This document shows, piece by piece, positions 107-24,472 of a stretch of 32,000 nt of DNA. Within the stretch, counting starts at the first letter, position 1, and each line of letters starts with the position of its first letter. The stretch is from Candidatus Saccharimonadota bacterium (lineage in GTDB: Bacteria; Patescibacteriota; Gracilibacteria; BD1-5; UBA6164), in NCBI GenBank assembly GCA_965227835.1, contig OZ245768.1:1290001-1322000 (forward strand), given 5' to 3'. The notes beneath the pieces are model-generated. The model did no database searches. It had not been told where the DNA came from and saw only the letters and a list, made by a program, of their open reading frames with translations. Made by a program: the position numbers and the translations under genes.

Positions 107-264
107 ATTGATTAAATTAGGTTAAATAAGTCACTTATAAAACACAAAAGATAGGAATATTTTCTATGAAAAGTAGATAGTTTTGATTTCATATATTTGC
201 TTTTTTACACACATATATGTTAAAATTAAATTTAGTTAGATTTTTAATTTATAATTTTTTATAT

Positions 265-3200
265 ATGTCAGAAAATTTGTGATATAGAGAATCAAGAAAA
301 ACTCAAAAAAACAAGGATTTTATACAATCATTAGAAAAAAGCTTAGAAGATTCAAATATAGATACTAGAGAAGCTAAAGAGCTGAGAGAAAAATATGAAG
401 AAATAAGAGAGGCTAGAAATCAAATATTAGCAATAACAAAGGATGAACTGAAATCTCTTGCTAGATGATTAAACATTGATGAAAACTCTAGTTTGGGAAA
501 AACTTTAAATAAGCTTATAGAAAAATCCCAAGATCAGGGTGAGGTAATTAGCAGTCCATCAGCAAGCACTGATGCAGGAATTGCTACCCCTGCACAGGAT
601 ATTACTAATACAGAAAGTATAGAAGATGGGAAAGCGTCTGAACTAGCAAAATGAATAGATTGAGTAGAGTATGACACAGACACAAATAATTATATTTACA
701 AATGAGAAAGAATAAGCAGAGATGATATTGAGAATAAAGATGATCTTATAAACTGGGTAGAAGAAATTGAAGATAAGATAGCCTTAGATTTAGCAAACTG
801 AATAAACTGAGTGGAATATGATGAAAATGGAAATCAATATAAATATAAATTAGAAGAAATAAACAGAGGTGAAATTGAAAATGAAAATGATTTAGAAGCT
901 TGGATAGACAACATAGAAGACAAAATAGCATTGGAACTAGCAAAATGAATAGATTGAGTGGAGTATAACAGAGATTCAAATATTTATACTTACAAATGAG
1001 AAGAAATAAACAGAGATGAAATTCAAGGTGAAGATGAGCTAAAAGCTTGGATTGAAGAGATGGATAAGAAAATAAGAGAATGATTAATAGCAGATTTTTG
1101 AATTGATGAAAACATATCAGAAATAGACAGTTTGGATAAAAGTTTTGCTGAATATGGTTTAGAGGGAGGGATTTTTAATCTTTTAGAAAAATATAATAGC
1201 TATATAGAAGATAAACTATCTTGATTAAAACCTGAAATTTTAGAAAAAATAAAACAATCTATATGAATAAGAATTCTAAATCTTAGGGAATCTATAAATG
1301 AAATGGAAGAAAGAATAGATAGCCTATGAGAACAAGATCAAAAGAGAAACTATCGTTGGATACTAAATTCTAAAATTCAAGAACATTTTTCTGAAATAAA
1401 CAACAAAATACTTCCAAGCGCATTATTATTACTTCAACATACAAATTGAAATATAGATTATGATAAAATAGATTTGAAAAGACCTGTATATTCTAGTCCT
1501 AAAGGACCCTGAGATTTGGGTGGGCAGACTATTTTGAGATATGAAGAATTGAGCACAAAGAAAAAAGAAGAAAAAATAAAATACAAGATAGCACAAATAG
1601 AAGAAATGTTTTCAGCTAGTTTAGATTATAATTGAGAGTTTGATGAATTTTGAATAGAAACATTTAATCAGTCAGGTACTTTGGAAATAGATGAAGAAGA
1701 AGATTTGGCTATTTTTAAAGGTATATGATGAGATAGGGATTCTTTGGCAGATATTGATTTTTTAAATGAAGCGGACAAAGAAATTGAAACTGAGGCTACT
1801 ATCGCATATTTTTCATATGTACTTATTTGTTTGGTTCCCTATATATGAGCTGCTGCAGCTGTTCCTAGTGATTTAGTAGATTTATTCTCAAATGAAGAAT
1901 GAGTATCAAAAATTTTAAGAGAGATGTGAGCTATAAATGAGGATTACAGAATGGAGAAATCTCTAATTGATAATATTTTATGATGAGTTTGATTACTATT
2001 AACGGTTATATGATTGCAATGAATTGCTAGATGAAAAAAACTTGTTAAAGCTTGAAGCAAATTAGATAAAATTTGAGCATGAAGAATAGAAGATTGATTG
2101 ATACAAATGTGAGAAAAAATGTGACTGTCTCAAGAAAAATTGAATAAAGTGTTATCATTTTTTAGAAAAGAAAATATGAGTACGGCAGTTATTTCAAATT
2201 GAGAAGATTTAAGAGTATTTTCTAAATTTGAGAGTTTAGATGAGCTTTGAAAGAAAGATTTTTTATCTAAGAGGCTGGAAGAATTGGAAAAAAATAGATC
2301 TAACCTAAATCCGGAAGAACTAGAGGAAGTAAATATGATACAAAAAATATTAGATGAGGGTAATCTATGAACTGATTCAAAACTACTTAATGAATATATA
2401 CAAAAGTATGTAATTCCTAAAGTTAAATTAGAAAACTTAGCTAGACTTAATAATCTATATCCTAAATGAACTAAAATTCAATTTAAACGCAATGAAAGTA
2501 GATGAAGGAATAATGGTGTAGAAGTAACCTATACTGGAGAAGTTAAGGAAATTAATCAAGATTGAAAATTAGTAGTATGGTGAGAAGTTCCTACTAGACC
2601 CTGAAAAAAAACAAGGTTTTTACTAAATCCTAATGATTGAAGTATAAGAATAATGGAGGATTCACTTGATATTGGAAAAATAGATGAGTGAGTTGCTATC
2701 ATGGAAAAGTTAATGCAAAAATTTCCCTCTTGAAGCAAAGTTGAATTTACTAATCAATCATGAAAAATCCTAAGAGGTGAAATTGTATGACACAATATTA
2801 ACTGACATGTAAAAATATGGGTAAAAGACTGAAGCTCTATTTCACAATATAATTCAAAAGGAGAGGATCTTAATAGTATAAAAATAATAGAAAGAATACC
2901 TTACAAAAAAGATTTTAATGTATGAGATAGAGTTACTATAGAAACATTATATGGAGAATGAGAAAGAAGTATAATTCGTTCTTGAGAAGTTTTAGAAATA
3001 TTTCCTGATTGAAAAGTATTAATTAGAAGAGAATCATCTAGTAATCAGCAATGAGCAAAAATACAGATAGATTTAAATGACCCAAATACGAGAATATCTA
3101 AAATAAGACAGTTTGAAGAAATTGAATATCCTAAGTTACTGGATAGGCTTAAAAATAATATCTTGCAAATAACAGATATTAATTTGAGGAATAAAATAAA

Positions 3201-4632
3201 GGTGCTAATAATTACACCTTTTGAAAAATTGAAAGATCTCAAAGATTTTAGCTCAAAAACTGTAAATCAACTATTAGAAAATGTTTATAAAGTAGAGAAA
3301 TTACTGTTAAATAATTGATCAGATCAAACAAATAATTTATTAAATTCTCTTATTTCTATTAAATCATTTATAAAATGAATTTTAGATAAAAATTCAAAAA
3401 TAATGTGAGTAAAACCGGAAATGATAGAGAAACTTAAAGTCCTAAAAGTTTGAGATGCTATAGAGGTATGATGACAAAAAAACATAATATCCAATATAGA
3501 TTGAAACACAATTGAACTTAGGGTTATTTTACCTGATGACACTATTCTTAAAGATAAAATTAATTTAGATGATTTGGGGAATAACCTTGAATATAGATGG
3601 TTGAATAATGCTAATATTACAAAATCTAGTGATGAAGAAAGGCTATTTAACTCGATATCTGCAGTAGATTCTTTTGAAGAATTATTTAGTACGATAAGAG
3701 CCAATTGAAAAATATGAAAATATAGTCCTAGCCGTATAATTTCTATTATTAAAAAATATGAAAACTGAGAAATAACTGAAATAAATAGAATAACTAGACA
3801 ATGATGACTTAGAGATAAGGTTGCTAGACTAAAAAACTATGATTTTATTAGAGATGATGATACTTTAGCTAAATTATGGCCTCGCGGATTAGATAGTATT
3901 ACTAAACAATGAGCTGTTTGAAATTGTTATTTTGTAGCATCCCTAAATGCTCTTAAAAATCATCCTAGAGGATGAGAAATGCTAAAAAATATGATAAAAG
4001 AAACAAAAGACTGATGGATAGTAAAATTTGCATGACATAATGAAACAATAAAAATAACTAAAAGTTCTTTGGATGAAATGGCTGAAGCAAGACAGTCTAG
4101 TGATAATATATGAGATATAATAATTGAAAGAGCTCATGCTAGAGTTGTAAATAAACAAAGATGATGAAACTCATGAGAAACCATGATGGTTAGAAGGAAT
4201 GGTGATTTAATTCATTCGTGAGGTCAAATGAAGGATACTATAAGATTGTTTTTTTGAAATAGATCTGAAAATACACTATATTATTATAGCGAAGGTAGAA
4301 TTGTGAAATCAAAAGATTTTGAAAGAAGTGAATATATGGCAAGTAAATCCTTAAGAACAATTTTAAGTCGTAATTTGGATGTTGATAATCTAATCACTAT
4401 ATCATCTAAATTTGAAAAATGAAAAACAGATAAATATAGTTATCCTTGAACAGATTTTTATTGAAGAGAAATAAAGATTGTTTACGGGCATGCATATAGT
4501 GTAAGTAATTTTAGTTATAAAGAATGATGGTTTTCCGTAGTTAATCCTCATGATTCTTGAACTGAAATTAGGTTAAAAATAGATGATTTTGATAAATATT
4601 TTAGTGGTATAACTGTATCAAAGTTTAGATAA
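265..4632 (+). CDS. Giant 1455-aa protein. It has an N-terminal charged coiled-coil-like region with 3x49-aa repeats, two central hydrophobic helices, and a C-terminal calpain-like (peptidase C2 / papain-fold) cysteine protease domain.
   Basis: I translated every codon by hand. The frame has no TAA or TAG from 265 to the TAA at 4630 and contains 84 in-frame TGA. C-terminal motifs are QGAVGNCYFVASLNAL (Cys codon 3925-3927), YGHAYSV (His 4489-4491) and VVNPHDSG (Asn 4543-4545), matching the calpain Cys/His/Asn triad context. Hydrophobic segments are IAYFSYVLICLVPYIGAAAAV (about 1801-1863) and LIDNILGGVGLLLTVIGLQGIA (about 1963-2028). An alternative in-frame ATG lies at 217. No Shine-Dalgarno. 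Confidence 0.85.
643..1083 (+). repeat. Three tandem in-frame 147-bp (49-aa) coding repeats inside the giant ORF.
   Basis: Units start at 643, 790 and 937. The unit consensus is LAKGIDGVEY-x-Y-YK-EEI-R-EIE-EDDL-AWIEEIEDKIAL. The copies have diverged at both nucleotide and protein level. Confidence 0.85.
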
Positions 4633-4653: not shown

Positions 4654-5526
4654 CTACCCCAACTCTCAAACCAACCTACACCAATAATCTATATCCAAAT
4701 CTTCAGCTCTAGAATTTAAATCTATTCATATATTTTCAAATACCCCAATTAAAAAACTTTTCTCATAACCTCAATTTTCCAAATTTTTAATAAGTTTTTT
4801 ACGAGAAGAAGAAAATCAGATTTTTACAACTCTTAAAAAAAACTCATCAGATAAGCTATTATACTTATCATGAGTTTTAAAAACTATGACACTTGATTCT
4901 ACTTTTGGTTTTGGTATGAAATTATCAGGGGAAACTTTTATTTTTTCCTCGGCATAAGCTTTTTTAGCAACCATCAAAGACAAAACAGAACTTTTGATTT
5001 TTCTATCACTTGATTCTGTTTTTTTTTCGAAAGAATACGAATACTTTTGGCATAATATCCTATCTCATACATCTTTTTGCATAAGTATAACCATATACTC
5101 AGGGCATTTTTTTAAATCATACAAAAAATGTCTTATTATAGGACTTGTAATATAATATGGGATATTTGATATTACTGAATATTTATATATATAACTTAAA
5201 TTTGATTCTCCCAGATTGTATTTTAACACATCCTCATTTTTTATTTCAAAACAAACCCCCTCAGTATCTAACTCTTTTAATCTTACTCTCTCATCCAAAA
5301 TAGAAACCATATTTTTATCAACCTCAACCAAATTTAAACTCAAAGGTTTTTTATAAAGTATCTTTTCCGTCAAACTTCAATAACCAGGTCAAACCTCAAC
5401 TATATTTTCATCTCTTATATTAATCAGTTCACATATATCCTCAAGTATTTTATCGTTAATCAAAAAATTTTGCCCCAAACTTTTTTTTGCTTTTATTCTG
5501 TATTTTTTAATCAAATCTAGGCTCAT
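4654..5526 (-). CDS. rsmA: 16S rRNA (adenine1518/1519-N6)-dimethyltransferase RsmA/KsgA, 290 aa.
   Basis: Motifs seen: GQNFLIND, EVGPGYGSLT (both Gly at 5377-5379 and 5389-5391 are TGA), SNIPYYITSPII, and a C-terminal GIDLNSRAEDL. The frame is scanned clear of TAA/TAG from 4657 to 5064 and from 5374 to 5523, and the segment between is the supplied 5065..5373 ORF. It ends at TAG 4654-4656. Confidence 0.9.
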
Positions 5527-5531
5527 ATCTC

Positions 5532-6671
5532 TTAATCTACATAAATATATCAAACAATTCTCCTATCCTTTAAATCTATTTTTCTGTAAGTAACTTCATT
5601 TAGTTTTTTATAATTCATATCAGATACTATCATATAGTTATCTTTTACCTCCATAACTATAGCTACATGACCATATCTAAGATTATATCATCTACCAGCA
5701 AGAGAAACTATTGCTCATAGTTCTGGTTTAAAACCTCTACCATAAACTACCTTATGTCATTTTGCAGCAGCATTTCTCATCCATTGATTAGCATTTCCCC
5801 TCCAATTAACATTTTTATAAGAAGCAACATAATAGGTACAATTTCCCCATACTCCTGAAAATGGTTTTCTCCATACCAGTTTGTATACTCCTTTAGAATT
5901 TGTATATTGGTTACCTATATATTGTTTATTTTGGTCAACTTTACTATATCTTTTGTTTACAGGAGCTTTATATACTGGTTTTTTTATTATAATTTTTTTA
6001 GCTCCTGGTAGGAAGATTTCTTCTCATATTTTTAATTTTCTTTGCTCATCAAAATCATTGAATTCAAGTATACTATTCTTATCTATTTTATACTTATTTG
6101 CTATGGCTAATAGAGAATCTCATGACTTTATTTTATAAGGAATACCTGAAACAGGAGGGATTTTCAATTGTTTTCAAGGGTTTATTGTATCTGTTTTTAA
6201 ATCATTGTATATCCTTATAGTATCCCAAGAAATACCAAACTTAGATGCTATCTCTGATATTGTATCTCATTCTTCTACCTTATATGTTAAAATTTCATTG
6301 GTTCATTTATAATCCCTGTCTTCGCTTAAAATACCTGTGTCCATTAAAAACTCATCTTGAGTTTCTATAAAGCTATCTCAAGAAGATATTTCTTCTTCTC
6401 TTAAATAATAGGAGCTATAAGTTCAAAGTATTGAGTCTTCATCTATATATCATCTGTAAAAATCAATCTCATTATTGTTATGAATAATTGATGCAAACAT
6501 AGGGTAAAGAGGGATTGATATGAGTAGACAAAGTATAATTATTCTATGAATTAAATTATTCCTCTTAAAAACACTAAAAATTCTGTTTTTTAGTGTTATA
6601 TTTTCTTTTATAGATCTAGAATGTCTATCTATCCTAGCTCTTATATTCACTTTATGTTGATTTTTTCCCAA
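5532..6671 (-). CDS. Membrane-anchored peptidoglycan hydrolase, 379 aa, with an N-terminal TM anchor, two LysM domains and a C-terminal CHAP/NlpC-P60-type amidase-peptidase domain.
   Basis: The TM segment is LIHRIIILCLLISIPLYPMFASII. LysM-like segments are YKVEEGDTISEIASKFGISWDTIRIYN and YKIKSGDSLLAIANKYKIDKNSILEFN. CHAP-like motifs are GNCTYYVASYKNVNWRGNANQW and RYGHVAIV. The start is TTG at 6669-6671, the only start-type codon after the upstream in-frame stop at 6681-6683. I scanned the frame by hand down to the TAA at 5532-5534. Confidence 0.75.
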
Positions 6672-7192: not shown

Positions 7193-7267
7193 TGGCTGGG
7201 ATGGAGGGATTCGAACCCCCGAATAACGGAGTCAAAGTCCGCTGCCTTACCACTTGGCCACATCCCA
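7193..7267 (-). tRNA. tRNA-Gln (anticodon UUG), CCA encoded.
   Basis: The reverse complement folds as acceptor TGGGATG/CATCCCA, anticodon stem GCGGA/TCCGT, loop CTTTGAC, T-arm GGGGG-TTCGAAT-CCCTC, discriminator G, CCA. Confidence 0.85.
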
Positions 7268-7478: not shown

Positions 7479-7553
7479 GCGGCTATCGTCTAGTGGTTAG
7501 GACATCGGGTTTTCATCCCGGTAACCGGGGTTCGATTCCCCGTAGCCGTACCA
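7479..7553 (+). tRNA. tRNA-Glu (anticodon UUC), CCA encoded.
   Basis: Acceptor GCGGCTA/TAGCCGT (G1-U72 wobble), D-arm GTCTAGTGGTTAGGAC, anticodon arm TCGGG-TTTTCAT-CCCGG, T-arm CGGGG-TTCGATT-CCCCG. Confidence 0.85.
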
Positions 7554-7565
7554 ATTTTATTTCTC

Positions 7566-7640
7566 CGCGGAGTGGAGAAGTGGTATCTCGTCGGGCTCAT
7601 AACCCGAAGATCATAGGTTCAATTCCTATCTCCGCAACCA
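7566..7640 (+). tRNA. Initiator tRNA-fMet (anticodon CAU), CCA encoded.
   Basis: It begins CGCGGAG and ends CTCCGCA-A-CCA, which gives the initiator-specific C1-A72 mismatch. The anticodon arm TCGGG-CTCATAA-CCCGA carries the three consecutive G-C pairs typical of initiators. The anticodon arm is identical to that of E. coli tRNA-fMet and much of the rest is similar, as I recall that sequence. Confidence 0.9.
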
Positions 7641-7714
7641 TTAATTTATTAAATAAGTGGTAAGTAACAAGTAGCTTTAATGTAAGCATAAAGCCTTGTT
7701 TCTTACTACTTTTT

Positions 7715-7791
7715 GTCAGTATAGCTCAGTTGGTTAGAGCGCAGGATTCATATCCCTGAGGTCGGTGGTTCAACTCCACCTACTGACACCA
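7715..7791 (+). tRNA. tRNA with anticodon CAU, either elongator tRNA-Met or lysidine-modified tRNA-Ile2. The two cannot be told apart by eye.
   Basis: Acceptor GTCAGTA/TACTGAC, D-arm GCTC-AGTTGGTTA-GAGC, anticodon arm CAGGA-TTCATAT-CCCTG (A31-C39 mismatch, U32 and U38), variable loop AGGTC, T-arm GGTGG-TTCAACT-CCACC, then ACCA. Confidence 0.8.
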
Positions 7792-8509: not shown

Positions 8510-8565
8510 ACATTATAATTTAGAGTTAGATATACAATATCTAGAATTTTTAATCTAAAAATTAA

Positions 8566-8605
8566 AAGGAGAGTTGATTTTTAAATCAACTCTCCTTCTT
8601 TGTTT
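8566..8605. terminator. Bidirectional intrinsic terminator shared by the convergent amidotransferase gene and the 235-aa gene.
   Basis: A 12-bp perfect stem, AAGGAGAGTTGA (8566-8577) with TCAACTCTCCTT (8586-8597), and an 8-nt loop. CTTTGTTT follows on the + strand, and TTTAATTTTT follows on the - strand. Confidence 0.7.
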
Positions 8606-8729
8606 GGCAGTAATTAAATTAAAGGTATCTTGTTTGGAATGAATTTACCTTTATAGTTACTCCCATTTTTAGCTCTAGTAATTCCAAAAAATTTTTTAAA
8701 TTCAAATAAGGAATTATTTTTGAAAATAG

Positions 8730-9437
8730 CTATTCTTTAGAATCAGAAGTATTTTTTCCATCACCATTTTTATTTTCTACTCCCGATTCAGATGAGGAGG
8801 TAGTAGAAATATCATCTGAAGATTTTCTATTATTTCCCTCAAAACCTCTAATAATTTCTGCAAGTCTGGGTTCTTTCATAGCATATTCAAGTATTTTCCC
8901 AAAAGTTGAAACAACCTCAATAAGTTCACTCCCCCAGTCTTGTTCTGAAGACCTATTTTGGTCATCATTACTAGATTTGGATTTCTTAGACTTTCTATTT
9001 TGTTCTTTAACTCTTCTACGGATTTCTTCCTCCACACTATTGAAATTAAAATTTTCAGGTTTTGGAGTTTCTTTTTGATCAACTGAACTTTCTTTCTCAG
9101 GATTTTCAGAATCTTGATCATTTTCAGCCTTAGCTTTTTTATCCTTAAGATAGAGCTCATAAGCCTCTCTGATTTTTTTATCCAGTTCCTTAGCCTCTTT
9201 AGTTTTAAGAAATTCAACGAAATCCTTTAGGGATATTTCTTCGTTTTGTTTTCCTGTTTTATCAGCTTTAAAACCTTCAAAATCCTTAAATATAGATAAT
9301 GTATCTTTGAAAGATTCAGACAAGAATTTTCCAAAGTCTGAACCAAGTTCTCCAACTTTTTTACCAGTTTCTGTATTTTCAACAGCTTTTGAAACAAACT
9401 CTGCAAGATATACAAGAGCAACCAATTTAACAATCAT
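8730..9437 (-). CDS. Hypothetical highly charged, low-complexity protein, 235 aa, with no TGA codon.
   Basis: It is a complete ATG to TAG ORF even under the standard code. All 13 Gly are GGN. A GGAG Shine-Dalgarno lies 7 nt upstream of the ATG (reverse complement of CTCC at 9445-9448). I recognise no family. Confidence 0.75.
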   Translation of the reverse strand: MIVKLVALVYLAEFVSKAVENTETGKKVGELGSDFGKFLSESFKDTLSIFKDFEGFKADKTGKQNEEISLKDFVEFLKTKEAKELDKKIREAYELYLKDKKAKAENDQDSENPEKESSVDQKETPKPENFNFNSVEEEIRRRVKEQNRKSKKSKSSNDDQNRSSEQDWGSELIEVVSTFGKILEYAMKEPRLAEIIRGFEGNNRKSSDDISTTSSSESGVENKNGDGKNTSDSKE

Positions 9438-9526
9438 AACTATACTCCTTTTTGATGATGTTACACAATTACCAAAATCTCTTTAAAAATATGCCTTTAG
9501 GCAGAAAATAGAAATTTTGTAAACCT

Positions 9527-9554
9527 ATATTAAATTTAAAAATTTATTTGTCAA
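9527..9554 (-). promoter_or_regulatory. Near-consensus sigma70 promoter for the 235-aa gene.
   Basis: On the minus strand: TTGACA (9549-9554), a 16-nt spacer, then TAATAT (9527-9532). Confidence 0.6.
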
Positions 9555-9565
9555 AAAAAAAACAT

Positions 9566-9593
9566 TTGACAAATAAAGAAATAAACATATAAT
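9566..9593 (+). promoter_or_regulatory. Consensus sigma70 promoter for the 68-aa ORF.
   Basis: TTGACA (9566-9571), a 16-nt spacer, then TATAAT (9588-9593). The two -35 regions form a perfect 10-bp inverted repeat, ATTTGTCAAA at 9546-9555 and TTTGACAAAT at 9565-9574. Confidence 0.65.
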
Positions 9594-9640
9594 AACTTTT
9601 GTTCTAGATTTTTTTTCAACATAAACAAAAGGAGTATATT

Positions 9641-9847
9641 ATGATCAATAGTATGGAACATGCCAAAATAGTGCAAGCAAGAAGAAAAGCTCAAGGAAAA
9701 AGTGGAGTGTCAAAAGCTGTACGAAACTTCTTGAAGCGTGAAGCTGGAATTACTGGTAGCCAAGGTCGTGCTTATCATTGTGGAAGTGTGGATAAACGTA
9801 CTCTCCGTAATGCCAAGTACCATGCCTTACTCAAAGAGCTTCCATAG
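9641..9847 (+). CDS. Small very basic protein, 68 aa, TGA-free and compositionally atypical (about 42% GC).
   Basis: GGAG at 9631-9634 lies 6 nt before the ATG. The ORF is ATG to TAG. All 6 Gly are GGN. Of 7 Arg, 4 are CGT and 1 is CGA, while the rest of the window uses almost only AGA. I counted 87 G+C in 207 nt. A strong terminator follows. I recognise no family. Confidence 0.6.
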   Translation: MINSMEHAKIVQARRKAQGKSGVSKAVRNFLKREAGITGSQGRAYHCGSVDKRTLRNAKYHALLKELP

Positions 9848-9865
9848 GCATTATGGTAAGTATAG

Positions 9866-9900
9866 AGGTCCTATCTTGTAAAAGATAGGACCTTATTTTA
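9866..9900 (+). terminator. Intrinsic terminator after the 68-aa ORF.
   Basis: A 12-bp perfect stem, AGGTCCTATCTT (9866-9877) with AAGATAGGACCT (9882-9893), and loop GTAA. TATTTTATGATTTTTTT follows. Confidence 0.75.
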
Positions 9901-15274: not shown

Positions 15275-15673
15275 CTAAAAAAATTTAGCATGCCCAATGC
15301 ATTCAGAACCAAAAATAAAATGCCTCTTTATACCTAAACAAGAACAAATTTTTTTCTGTCAATAAAGACCATAGGAGTAACATTTAGGGAATTCGATAGG
15401 AATTAAAAGCATTGTAGAATGTATCAAAATAAAAAAAGCTACAATTATTATATTAATGGCTTTTCTTTTTTTATAAAAAAAATACCAAATTAATAAAGTG
15501 TGAATTAAAACAAATATAATAGTAATAACTCCAAAATGAATTGCTGAATGTATTCCGAAAAATTCATCTCCCGTAAAAGGAATCAAAAAGTAAAGAAATA
15601 AGCTACCAAAAAGAGTTAGAATAAATAACAAAAATTTTTTAAAATCAAATATTTTTTTTATACCCTTTTTCAT
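15275..15673 (-). CDS. Hypothetical small multi-pass membrane protein, 132 aa.
   Basis: The track ORF 15359..15673 ends at a TGA. Reading through it extends the protein by 28 aa to TAG at 15275-15277. It converges on the previous gene with a 4-nt gap. Confidence 0.55.
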
Positions 15674-21111: not shown

Positions 21112-21480
21112 CTATTTTTTCAATTCACAAATTTTGTTATCATTACAAATAGGCTTTAGTCCAATATTTAGATCTGGATTTATACAATCATAAAAAAATC
21201 CTAATTCTTTTTCAATTTCTCAAGCTTTTTTGTTATAACTTTTCCAACTAGCTTTAGAGTTAGACTTATTTATTGCCTTTGGTCCACCACAACCCCAACC
21301 AGAAATATTTACAATTTTACAATCCTCATCAAAATCACAGTTGATTTTAATATTTGATTTACCATTTTCAAAAGGATAATTTAGGTATTTAGTTTGTTTT
21401 TTATCATCTTTGTAGTTACAGCTTGAAATTATTAGCAAAGATAGTAAGTAAAAAAGTAAAAATAATTTTTTGTTAATCAT
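21112..21480 (-). CDS. Small Cys-rich lipoprotein, 122 aa.
   Basis: The signal peptide MINKKLFLLFYLLSLLIISSC has a lipobox-like ISSC, and 7 further Cys follow. Reading through the TGA at 21220-21222 extends it to TAG at 21112-21114. It starts 10 nt after the stop of the upstream carboxypeptidase gene. Confidence 0.6.
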
Positions 21481-22471: not shown

Positions 22472-23266
<795 letters not shown>

Positions 23267-23292
23267 TCAAAAGTATTTAAACTATTATAATA

Positions 23293-23814
23293 TTACCCTA
23301 ATATAGAACTAAACCTTCCCTCACTTATAACTTTTACTACTTCTGTTGCAAGAAAAACTTTTCCATTCATGCAAACATATACTCCATTTTGAAGATGTTG
23401 TAGCTTTGAAATTGCAAAACCTATATTAAAACCACCATCTGACATTGTAAATTCTGCCATTGGTAGCATTGATGCTATAAATATAACCACTTGATCTTTT
23501 CTTTTTAGATTTGCTTGTAAAAATCTAGCAGAATCAGGCATTGTATAAGTACCATGTGTTACTATAATATGTTTATGAGAACTTTCCTCTATTTTCTTCA
23601 ATACACTATTCAAGTCTTCTTTCGTTATTTCGCGACTATCTTTCATACAAACTTCACTAAACTCTATCTTATTCTCTAAGTTAACAGATTCTATATATCT
23701 TGGAATTATAGAATGTTTATTTGGAACGGCTGTATCTTTAGTTGACTCATAATATGAATCAATAGTTCATCCAGTAATAATAAAATGTATAGGTAAAGGT
23801 GTTTTTACCCCCCC
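23293..23814 (-). CDS. Single-domain L-asparaginase-like protein, about 173 aa, whose open frame has no canonical start upstream of its catalytic motif.
   Basis: The frame is open from 23814. It encodes IITGGTIDS (nucleophile Thr motif) and VTHGTYTM (the HGTDT-type motif). The first in-frame ATG is at 23644-23646, downstream of TGGTID. The only nearby ATGs (23819-23824) are in another frame, separated from this one by the G8 run. Confidence 0.6.
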
Positions 23815-24058: not shown

Positions 24059-24472
24059 TTAAAGAATTTCTTTATTTTTTTCATTTCTTTCCTCTATAAT
24101 TTTTTTAATTTTATCCATAATTGCTGGGTGAGTTTCAAAAAGTTTTTTTAATGAAAAATCAATAATTACTACCAATACTGAATCTACTAATGCCCTAGTT
24201 CAAGCCATTCTTTTTGACTCATTTCAAAACAAAGCCATTTCTCAAAAAATATTATCTGCTTCTATATGTCACAATATTAAACTTCAATCACTACTGCTCT
24301 TATATACTTCTACTTTTCAACTTTTTAATATATACATAGAATTAGCTAAATCTCACTCAGCGAATATATCCTCTCAAGCTTCCACAAATCTTTCTTGGCA
24401 AAACATTTCAAGAGACTCTATTTCTCCGTTACTTAATTCTCACAAGATATTTATTCAATTTAGTATAGACAT
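24059..24472 (-). CDS. Stand-alone cyclic-nucleotide-binding domain protein, 137 aa, with no DNA-binding domain.
   Basis: The protein reads FAEGDLANSMYILKSGKVEVY, then FGEMALF, then RMAGTRA, which is a typical cNMP-binding cassette. The frame is scanned by hand. Confidence 0.7.

What the first reader, a model, noticed from the sequence alone, without database searches (positions are those of the whole stretch)
8566..9900. Terminator-insulated divergent gene pair that is TGA-free, Shine-Dalgarno-led and driven by consensus promoters, unlike every other gene in the window
Nearly every other CDS here uses TGA for Gly. I counted 19 TGA against about 22 GGN in tuf, and 84 TGA in the giant ORF. Even the tiny ribosomal protein genes contain TGA. 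The 235-aa gene (13 Gly) and the 68-aa gene (6 Gly) contain none. They are therefore the only genes translatable under both code 11 and code 25. They are also the only two genes with a clear GGAG Shine-Dalgarno. I checked the 20-25 nt upstream of about 20 other starts and saw none. The pair has TTGACA-16-TATAAT and TTGACA-16-TAATAT promoters and lies between the two strongest GC-containing terminators in the window. Possible explanations are recent acquisition from a standard-code donor (host bacterium, phage or plasmid), a module kept code-neutral on purpose, or a specially translated high-expression module. I cannot tell these apart from the sequence alone.
Basis: partly seen in the sequence, partly recalled or inferred. 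Interest (0 to 1): 0.8.

Follow-up and report, generated by a model that had tools for sequence, protein, structure and literature searches.

The report
Imported TGA-free gene pair, Gracilibacteria
In a bacterium that reads TGA as glycine and hardly ever uses ribosome-binding sites, two adjacent orphan genes avoid TGA and carry their own textbook promoter, ribosome-binding site and terminator, most likely because they arrived recently from a mobile element that uses or tolerates the standard code; what they do is unknown.

Summary
Gene A (8730-9437, minus strand, 235 aa) uses TGA for 0 of 13 Gly codons, and gene B (9641-9847, plus strand, 68 aa) for 0 of 6. The window average is 58% (P = 1.3e-5 and 0.0055). 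Both have the same leader, AAAAGGAGTATA, 4-5 nt before the ATG; no other of 25 genes has one. B has the only 12/12 sigma-70 promoter in 32 kb. The two flanking hairpins are the strongest terminators in the window.

"Unlike every other gene" is overstated. An asparaginase fragment (23293-23646) is also TGA-free, and three or four other genes are TGA-poor.

Both proteins are orphans, with no relatives in any protein, virus, metagenome, phage, plasmid or PDB search. Both also use synonymous codons differently from native genes, including tuf and fusA.

Across 295 ORFs from 23 related Gracilibacteria loci, having no TGA and having a Shine-Dalgarno motif go together (Fisher P = 2e-5). One relative, CP042461, has a similar islet.

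Best reading: a self-contained, moron-like cassette imported from a standard-code or code-11/25-compatible mobile element. A high-expression native module is rejected, because tuf, fusA and the ribosomal protein genes are rich in TGA. Function remains unknown. This is a new member of a known kind and of moderate interest.

The parts
8564..8599 (.). Bidirectional intrinsic terminator: a perfect 15-bp stem (AAGGAGAGTTGATTT / AAATCAACTCTCCTT) with T-rich tracts on both sides. It ends gene A's transcript about 130 nt after the stop codon, and also ends the convergent GATase gene.
   Evidence: I8: 15 nt, 100% complementary. It is the longest stem among all terminator-like sites in 32 kb.
8730..9437 (-). 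Gene A: 235 aa with a TAG stop. 0 TGA in 13 Gly codons. Predicted helical with long disordered stretches, rich in Lys, Glu, Ser and Asp, with a hydrophobic N-terminal helix. Orphan.
   Evidence: - ORF and TGA counts.
- Coding periodicity: GC1/2/3 = 0.46/0.31/0.18.
- Codon bias: NNT/(NNT+NNA) = 0.73.
- No family match.
- Finds only itself in 5.8 billion and 1.84 billion protein libraries.
- AlphaFold pLDDT 43.
9440..9451 (-). Shine-Dalgarno leader of A: AAAAGGAGTATA on the minus strand, with AGGAG 7 nt before the ATG.
   Evidence: It is unpaired in the predicted fold of the 5' UTR.
9527..9554 (-). Promoter of A: TTGACA-16-TAATAT (10/12 match). The predicted 5' UTR is about 83 nt.
9521..9599 (.). 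Mirror-image promoter region: a 35-nt imperfect inverted repeat. Its core, TTATTTGTCAA / TTGACAAATAA, contains both -35 boxes. It is a candidate operator (inferred).
   Evidence: I1, 71% complementary; both arms start TTGACAAATAAA.
9566..9593 (+). Promoter of B: TTGACA-16-TATAAT (12/12 match). The predicted 5' UTR is about 41 nt.
   Evidence: the only 12/12 match in 32 kb; 0.085 expected per 32 kb.
9626..9637 (+). Shine-Dalgarno leader of B: AAAAGGAGTATA, with AGGAG 6 nt before the ATG.
9641..9847 (+). Gene B: 68 aa with a TAG stop, followed by in-frame TAA and TAG within 7 codons. 0 TGA in 6 Gly codons. Very basic (15 Lys+Arg against 4 Asp+Glu), with three predicted helices. Orphan, and not annotated in the public protein collections.
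   Evidence: - ORF and TGA counts.
- GC 42%, GC1/2/3 = 0.54/0.44/0.28, and a codon-usage outlier.
- No homologue anywhere.
- AlphaFold pLDDT 62, helices at 4-18, 25-34 and 52-65.
- No Rfam match, and fold z-score -1.3.
9865..9894 (+). Intrinsic terminator of B: a 13-bp stem (GAGGTCCTATCTT / AAGATAGGACCTT) followed by ATTTTAT. It starts 18 nt after the stop codon and sits just before the 3' end of the convergent pnp gene (9920).

Best explanation
The 1.3-kb segment is a self-contained, horizontally acquired two-gene cassette. Its build resembles a phage moron: each gene has its own promoter, ribosome-binding site and terminator.

It most likely came from a mobile element (phage, plasmid or similar). 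That element either uses the standard code or is code-11/25-compatible, and it belongs to a world where Shine-Dalgarno initiation and hairpin terminators are normal.

On this reading, TGA is missing because it was a stop codon, or was avoided, in the source. Too little time has passed for synonymous GGA-to-TGA changes to build up.

How it works in the present host:
- Shown: two back-to-back consensus sigma-70 promoters sit in a palindromic spacer and would drive divergent transcripts.
- Shown: identical AAAAGGAGTATA leaders sit at ideal spacing from the ATG.
- Inferred: these leaders give SD-dependent initiation in a genome whose own genes start without SD.
- Shown: hairpin terminators insulate the pair from the convergent GATase and pnp genes.
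- Inferred, weakly: B is a small, basic, three-helix nucleic-acid-binding protein that may act on the palindrome covering both -35 boxes. A is a helical, disordered, charged protein of unknown role.
For: - TGA depletion is significant and limited to the reading frame.
- Both genes use synonymous codons unlike native genes, including the highly expressed ones. B scores -2.0 bits per codon against -1.03 to -1.29, uses CGT/CGA for 5 of 7 Arg, and has 42% GC. A has an NNT bias of 0.73 against 0.49 (P = 8e-5), where tuf is 0.54 and fusA 0.50, and uses TTA for 1 of 14 Leu against 40%.
- SD, a consensus promoter and strong terminators occur nowhere else in the window.
- No copy lies near pnp in 54 related loci. 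The pnp-to-rplU interval varies in content between relatives.
- In 295 ORFs from 23 low-GC code-25 loci, TGA-free genes with at least 5 Gly are rare (6). Four of the 6 have an SD-like motif, against 7 of 262 other genes (Fisher P = 2.3e-5). The pooled TGA share of Gly is 0.17 in strong-SD genes against 0.69 in genes without SD.
- Two of the six (a DapD-like gene and an S8-like peptidase) resemble known enzyme families by inspection only, without a profile search; the other four are small proteins with no recognised family.
- CP042461 (L047) has a comparable islet. It holds small TGA-poor orphans, back-to-back TTGACA promoters, 9 terminators against 1.9 expected, and an ATGA start/stop overlap that works only if TGA is a stop.
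- In the window itself, the other TGA-free or TGA-poor ORFs are a truncated asparaginase and an adjacent SDR, which also look imported.
- Code-11-compatible phages without in-frame TGA have been predicted to infect Gracilibacteria (PMC10746230).
Against: - No donor or homologue was found in any collection, so transfer is inferred only from composition and signals.
- The trinucleotide signature of the whole segment is not an outlier (rank 70-101 of 307 windows).
- There are no phage or mobility genes, no att-like repeats and no tRNA-fragment duplication at the borders.
- The related genomes are distant (pnp at most 75% identical), so absence at the locus says little about when the pair arrived.
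- The source genome beyond this window could not be surveyed.
Confidence: 0.6

Rival explanations
1. The module is kept TGA-free by selection and is not simply young. It could belong to, or derive from, an element that shuttles between the code-25 bacterium and standard-code bacteria. Alternatively it could be expressed where tRNA-Gly(UCA) is absent or limiting, for example in a host or prey cell. In either case it must stay readable in both codes and carries universal sigma-70, SD and terminator signals.
For: - Both stops are TAG, not TGA, and B has three in-frame non-TGA stops within 7 codons. This matches the description of code-compatible phages (PMC10746230).
- The bulk composition of the segment is host-like. 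A's codon use outside Gly lies at the edge of the native range. This suggests long co-residence with AT-rich hosts while TGA stayed absent.
- SD-like, TGA-free small secreted proteins are conserved between two oral Gracilibacteria (L043 4007-4300 and L017 4413-4706).
Against: - There is no evidence of mobility, of a second host, or of conservation of A or B anywhere.
- With 19 Gly codons, a recent arrival explains zero TGA without any selection.
- Published Gracilibacteria prophages are rich in TGA.
- The L043/L017 orthologues have only 1-3 Gly codons, so they say little about TGA avoidance.
Confidence: 0.2
2. A native, lineage-specific, highly expressed or specially translated pair. It would use SD-dependent initiation as a regulatory class, as rpsU does in Bacteroidetes, and would avoid TGA for translational speed or accuracy.
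For: Very strong expression signals. The segment's trinucleotide composition is native-like. Gracilibacteria often lack bS21 (PMC9297842), so an unusual SD regime is conceivable.
Against: - Highly expressed native genes do not avoid TGA: tuf 19 of 41, fusA 33 of 62, rplU 3 of 7, rpmB 4 of 7, rpsJ 2 of 4.
- Those genes have no SD and do not share the codon biases of A or B.
- No orthologue exists in any related locus or database.
- B does not match bS21.
Confidence: 0.1
3. ORF B is not a gene. On this view the promoter-to-terminator unit (about 9600-9895) encodes a small structured RNA, and the higher GC reflects RNA structure.
For: GC is 42% in a 27% genome. B is absent from public protein annotations. 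The transcription unit is short and cleanly bounded.
Against: - No Rfam family matches, even at E up to 10.
- The fold energy z-score is only -1.3.
- The SD-ATG geometry is perfect and identical to that of A.
- Codon-position GC falls 0.54, 0.44, 0.28, as in coding sequence.
- The stop codon lies 18 nt before the terminator.
Confidence: 0.05
4. Assembly chimera or contamination: a 1.3-kb piece of a standard-code organism wrongly joined into the contig.
For: Foreign-looking signals and codon use.
Against: The segment sits inside a 1.49-Mb contig, between native TGA-rich genes. Its intergenic flanks are AT-rich and its trinucleotide signature is host-like. It shares its terminators with the neighbouring convergent native genes. 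This could not be tested without reads.
Confidence: 0.03

Closest known systems
Phage 'morons' and other autonomous accessory transcription units (promoter, gene, terminator) inserted between resident genes
   Same: Each gene has its own strong promoter and its own intrinsic terminator. The codon use is atypical, the function is unknown, and the pair is inserted between unrelated housekeeping genes.
   Different: It is not inside a recognisable prophage, and no phage genes lie within 32 kb. It has two divergent genes sharing a palindromic promoter region. Morons are defined within phage genomes.
Code-11/25-compatible phages predicted to infect Gracilibacteria and Absconditabacteria (Liu et al. 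2023, mBio, PMC10746230)
   Same: No in-frame TGA, non-TGA stop codons, and several stops close together at the end of B. The genes can be read in both codes, in the same host phylum.
   Different: These are chromosomal genes with no phage hallmark genes. There is no sequence similarity to any phage record or viral contig. That paper found integrated prophages of these hosts to be rich in TGA.
Genes acquired laterally by Gracilibacteria from organisms outside the CPR (for example, the region discussed in Sieber et al. 2019, PMC6851277)
   Same: A foreign-looking segment in a code-25 genome.
   Different: Those genes have recognisable homologues and were reported to show alternative coding throughout. 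A and B have no homologues and no TGA.
SD-led rpsU (bS21) autoregulation in SD-poor Bacteroidetes (from my own knowledge, not checked here)
   Same: A small basic protein gene is one of the very few with a strong SD in a genome that otherwise starts translation without SD.
   Different: B does not match the bS21 profile or E. coli bS21. Its codon use is non-native, and it is not conserved.

Membership tests
Horizontally acquired islet / moron-like unit | Own promoter and own terminator around the cargo gene | tested here: met
   12/12 and 10/12 promoters, and 13-16-bp hairpin terminators on both sides.
Horizontally acquired islet / moron-like unit | Composition or codon use differs from resident genes | tested here: met
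   B is an extreme codon outlier with 42% GC. A has an NNT bias with P = 8e-5 and no TGA. However, the segment-wide trinucleotide signature is not an outlier.
Horizontally acquired islet / moron-like unit | Absent from the same locus in related genomes | tested here: inconclusive
   It is absent from 54 pnp-anchored loci. The closest has only about 75% PNPase identity and synteny is poor.
Horizontally acquired islet / moron-like unit | Identifiable donor or homologues elsewhere, or mobility genes or att repeats | tested here: not met
   No homologue in any collection. No direct repeats at the borders.
Code-11/25-compatible phage genes (PMC10746230) | No in-frame TGA and non-TGA stop codons | tested here: met
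   0 TGA in 19 Gly codons, and both stops are TAG.
Code-11/25-compatible phage genes (PMC10746230) | Phage context (hallmark genes, PHROG or viral-contig similarity) | tested here: not met
   PHROG matches have E of 0.006 or worse, to families of unknown function. Nothing in viral contigs or phage records.
Ribosomal protein bS21 (for B) | Match to Pfam Ribosomal_S21 or to solved bS21 sequences | tested here: not met
   No Pfam or NCBIfam hit at E up to 10. No PDB hit. BLASTP against E. coli bS21 gives E = 11.
Known defence or toxin-antitoxin systems | Profile match to a component | tested here: not met
   PADLOC gives none at E up to 1. Pfam gives none.
Structured small RNA gene (for the B unit) | Rfam match, or folding energy well below shuffled sequences | tested here: not met
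   z-score -1.3.

The most novel reading that the evidence does not exclude
Gracilibacteria carry a recurrent class of small, SD-led, TGA-free orphan cassettes that selection keeps readable in both the standard code and code 25. These cassettes would be cargo of elements that move between the code-25 epibiont and its standard-code bacterial host. The universal promoter, SD and terminator signals would let them be expressed on either side of the 'genetic-code firewall'. The pair studied here would be one such cassette.
Probability: 0.12. Interest if true: 0.85.

Novelty: new member of a known kind. Interest (0 to 1): 0.4.

Why it matters
In a code-25 organism, the share of Gly codons written as TGA works as a built-in marker of foreign or recently arrived genes. 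This pair is a clean example: foreign expression signals (SD, consensus promoter, hairpin terminators) and absence of TGA travel together. A small survey suggests the same link holds in other Gracilibacteria.

That bears on how far an altered genetic code really acts as a barrier to gene flow. TGA-free genes enter without needing repair. The result also gives annotators a simple screen for imports, namely TGA per Gly combined with an SD motif.

If the absence of TGA proved to be maintained by selection, it would point to genetic elements living on both sides of a code boundary.

The finding does not reveal a new mechanism, and the function of the two proteins remains unknown.

Tried and rejected
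- Family searches for A and B against Pfam, PHROGs, NCBIfam and PADLOC gave nothing significant.
- Word-indexed search of 5.8 billion proteins: B has no candidate and A finds only itself. Full HMMER search of 1.84 billion representatives with A found itself plus one low-complexity repeat protein.
- An exact look-up showed that B is not in the protein collection.
- The contig could not be retrieved by look-up, and the source genome is not among the GTDB representatives. A genome-wide survey of the source was therefore impossible.
- Viral and metagenome contig scans found nothing for either protein.
- tblastn and blastn against phages and plasmids gave only noise: E of at least 1, or 37-41-nt AT-rich matches. 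Several weak B hits fell in Microviridae VP4 regions at E 2-7, and I treat them as compositional.
- PDB sequence searches found nothing.
- AlphaFold single-sequence models had pLDDT 62 (B) and 43 (A), too poor for fold searches, so none were run.
- The bS21 idea for B was rejected.
- The small-RNA idea was rejected.
- A riboswitch or attenuator in A's 5' UTR was not supported: only a weak hairpin, z-score -0.6.
- No att sites or tRNA-fragment repeats were found at the borders.
- Similarity of B to a basic 111-aa protein in the L047 islet was not significant.
Full report
**What the window is**

The window has 27% GC and uses genetic code 25 (TGA = Gly). Long conserved genes (pnp, lepA, fusA, infB, tuf, tsaD, miaA, ksgA) are open only if TGA is read through. 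The PNPase aligns end to end, at up to 75% identity, with Gracilibacteria MAGs and genomes when code 25 is used. The source contig is 1,489,121 bp and is held by NCBI/ENA. It is not among the GTDB representatives that were scanned; the best PNPase match is about 70-75% identical.

**Checking the observation**

The two genes:
- Gene A is 8730-9437 on the minus strand, 235 aa, with a TAG stop.
- Gene B is 9641-9847 on the plus strand, 68 aa, with a TAG stop.

TGA use:
- Outside the pair, 372 of 642 Gly codons (58%) are TGA.
- A has 0 of 13 (binomial P = 1.3e-5) and B has 0 of 6 (P = 0.0055).
- The depletion is limited to the reading frame. A has 0, 2 and 22 TGA in its three frames.

Expression signals:
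- Both genes carry the same leader, AAAAGGAGTATA, 4-5 nt before the ATG.
- Of the 25 other genes, none has AGGAG or GGAGG at SD distance. The only near exception is a doubtful TTG start of ksgA inside the preceding gene.
- B's promoter, TTGACA-16-TATAAT, is the only 12/12 match in 32 kb. About 0.085 such matches are expected per 32 kb.
- A's promoter, TTGACA-16-TAATAT, is a 10/12 match. The two -35 boxes lie in a mirror-image repeat, TTATTTGTCAA...TTGACAAATAA.
- The hairpins at 8564-8599 and 9865-9894 are the longest and most GC-rich terminator-like sites in the window. The remaining sites are short and mostly inside genes.

So the anatomy is real and well beyond chance.

The ORFs at 22472-23218 (2 of 15), 15275-15673 (1 of 10) and 21112-21480 (1 of 8) are TGA-poor.

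**Are these real genes?**

Both show the fall in GC from codon position 1 to 3 that is typical of coding sequence in this genome: A 0.46/0.31/0.18 and B 0.54/0.44/0.28.

The B unit has no Rfam match, even at a permissive threshold. It folds no better than shuffled sequence (z = -1.3). The SD-ATG geometry and a stop codon 18 nt before the terminator argue for an mRNA.

B is nevertheless missing from the public protein collections.

**What the proteins are**

Neither protein matches Pfam, PHROGs, NCBIfam, PADLOC or PDB sequences.
- A finds only itself among 5.8 billion clustered proteins. Among 1.84 billion representatives it finds itself plus one low-complexity artefact.
- Neither protein has a relative in IMG/VR contigs, JGI metagenome contigs, GenBank phages or PLSDB plasmids.
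- Single-sequence AlphaFold models are poor. B has pLDDT 62 with three helices. A has pLDDT 43, helical with long low-confidence stretches. I ran no fold searches because these models are too unreliable to give meaningful matches.
- B is strongly basic, so a nucleic-acid-binding role is a reasonable guess.
- I tested the attractive idea that B is a divergent bS21, which Gracilibacteria often lack (PMC9297842). It failed.

**Origin**

Three lines of evidence point to import.

1. Codon use.
- B is by far the most atypical gene in the window, at -2.0 bits per codon against -1.03 to -1.29 for all others. This holds even with Gly excluded.
- B uses CGT/CGA for 5 of 7 Arg, against 3% natively and 0 of 20 in tuf. 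It uses GTG for 3 of 4 Val and GCC for 3 of 8 Ala.
- A looks closer to native overall but has the highest NNT-over-NNA preference in the window: 0.73 against 0.49 (P = 8e-5). It has almost no TTA Leu (1 of 14 against 40%).
- tuf (0.54), fusA (0.50) and the ribosomal protein genes (0.47-0.48) do not show this bias, so it is not an expression effect.

2. Signals.
- SD motifs, a consensus promoter and hairpin terminators are absent from native genes here. They are the norm in standard-code, low-GC bacteria and their phages.

3. Comparative context.
- Neither gene occurs in 54 pnp-anchored loci.
- The interval between pnp and tRNA-Gln/rplU holds different genes in those relatives that keep this loose synteny (L005, L017).
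- I called 295 ORFs in the 23 low-GC code-25 loci. Of the 268 with at least 5 Gly codons, only 6 have no TGA. Four of those 6 have an SD-like motif, against 7 of the 262 others (Fisher P = 2.3e-5).
- The pooled TGA share of Gly is 0.17 in strong-SD genes, 0.42 in weak-SD genes and 0.69 in the rest.
- Two of the TGA-free genes look by eye like a DapD-type acyltransferase and an S8-type peptidase; the rest are small proteins, some with signal-peptide-like N termini. I did not run profile searches on these.
- In the complete genome CP042461 (L047), the first 4.8 kb of the locus is a comparable islet. It has small orphan genes with few or no TGA, back-to-back TTGACA promoters (one of them 12/12), and 9 terminator-like hairpins against 1.9 expected. 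It also has an ATGA start/stop overlap that only makes sense if TGA terminates.
- Within the window, the other TGA-free ORF is a truncated asparaginase, matching profile positions 52-164 of 193. It sits next to a TGA-poor SDR. That looks like another, older or decaying import, this time without SD.

**What argues for caution**

- No donor is known.
- There are no mobility genes or att-like repeats.
- The trinucleotide signature of the whole segment is unremarkable.
- The relatives are too distant to date the insertion.

The host-like bulk composition, together with the strict absence of TGA, fits a source that lives with AT-rich Gracilibacteria but avoids TGA. That is the class of code-11/25-compatible phages described by Liu et al. 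(PMC10746230). Whether the lack of TGA reflects youth or selection cannot be decided from 19 Gly codons.

**Rejected reading**

A native high-expression module does not fit. The most highly expressed native genes use TGA freely, lack SD motifs, and do not share the pair's codon biases.

**Mechanism (best guess)**

- Divergent transcription runs from mirrored consensus promoters.
- Translation starts by SD pairing, on leaders that are predicted to be unpaired.
- Hairpins shared with the convergent neighbours terminate the transcripts cleanly.
- B may bind the palindrome spanning both -35 boxes and regulate the pair. This is inferred only from its size, its charge and the divergent layout.

**Verdict**

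The finding is genuine and neatly illustrates gene import across a code boundary. It is best filed as a new member of a known kind: an acquired orphan cassette. It is not a new system. Interest 0.4. The more novel reading, cassettes held code-neutral by selection, has about 12% probability and would be of high interest if true.

Noticed in passing
window 22472-23646 (minus strand): This looks like a second imported patch. An ORF of 117 aa (23293-23646) has 0 TGA in 8 Gly codons and matches only positions 52-164 of the 193-position asparaginase N-terminal domain, so it is a truncated gene or pseudogene. Next to it is an SDR/FabG-like gene with only 2 TGA in 15 Gly codons. Neither has an SD.
   Followed up: partly
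L047 1-4800 (CP042461.1, Candidatus Gracilibacteria bacterium 28_42_T64, about 276.8-281.6 kb): An islet of small orphan genes with few or no in-frame TGA. It has back-to-back TTGACA promoters at 3549 and 3576 (one a 12/12 match) and 9 terminator-like hairpins against 1.9 expected. At 3915-3922 an ATGA start/stop overlap works only if TGA is read as a stop. No Pfam or PHROG matches.
   Followed up: partly
23 low-GC code-25 loci (L001-L053 subset): Across 295 ORFs, SD-like leaders are rare (15 genes) and strongly linked to a low TGA share of Gly: 0.17 for strong SD, 0.42 for weak SD and 0.69 for none. The TGA share of Gly combined with an SD motif may be a general marker of imported genes in Gracilibacteria.
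   Followed up: partly
L043 4007-4300 and L017 4413-4706: Orthologous 97-aa proteins with signal-peptide-like N termini in two oral Gracilibacteria (HOT-871 and GN02-872). Both have an SD-like leader and no TGA, which suggests that some SD-led genes persist across species.
   Followed up: no
window 217-4632 (plus strand): A giant 1471-aa ORF with 84 in-frame TGA. It has N-terminal repeats of about 45 aa (LAKGIDGVEYD...). Its C-terminal region gives a borderline match to calpain-type cysteine peptidase C2 (E = 4.6e-5, 23.1 bits against a cutoff of 23.8) and includes a QGAVGNCYF motif.
   Followed up: partly
window 7479-7791 and 7193-7267: A tRNA cluster (Glu-UUC, Met, Met on the plus strand; Gln-UUG on the minus strand) lies about 0.8 kb from the cassette. 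The 98-aa 'ORF' at 7483-7779 (minus strand) is an artefact of this cluster.
   Followed up: yes
L019 3563-3641 and L020 4693-4771: ARAGORN labels these as tRNA-SeC with anticodon TCA. In these code-25 genomes they are presumably the tRNA-Gly(UCA) that decodes TGA.
   Followed up: no
window 24059-24472 (minus strand): A cyclic-nucleotide-binding-domain protein of 137 aa uses TGA for 10 of its 11 Gly codons, the highest share in the window.
   Followed up: no
window 5526-5575 (minus strand): The longest ORF of ksgA/rsmA starts at a TTG preceded by AGGAG, inside the 3' end of the upstream LysM-peptidase gene. The ATG nine codons downstream is the more likely start, so this is probably a chance SD-like match.
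   Followed up: no
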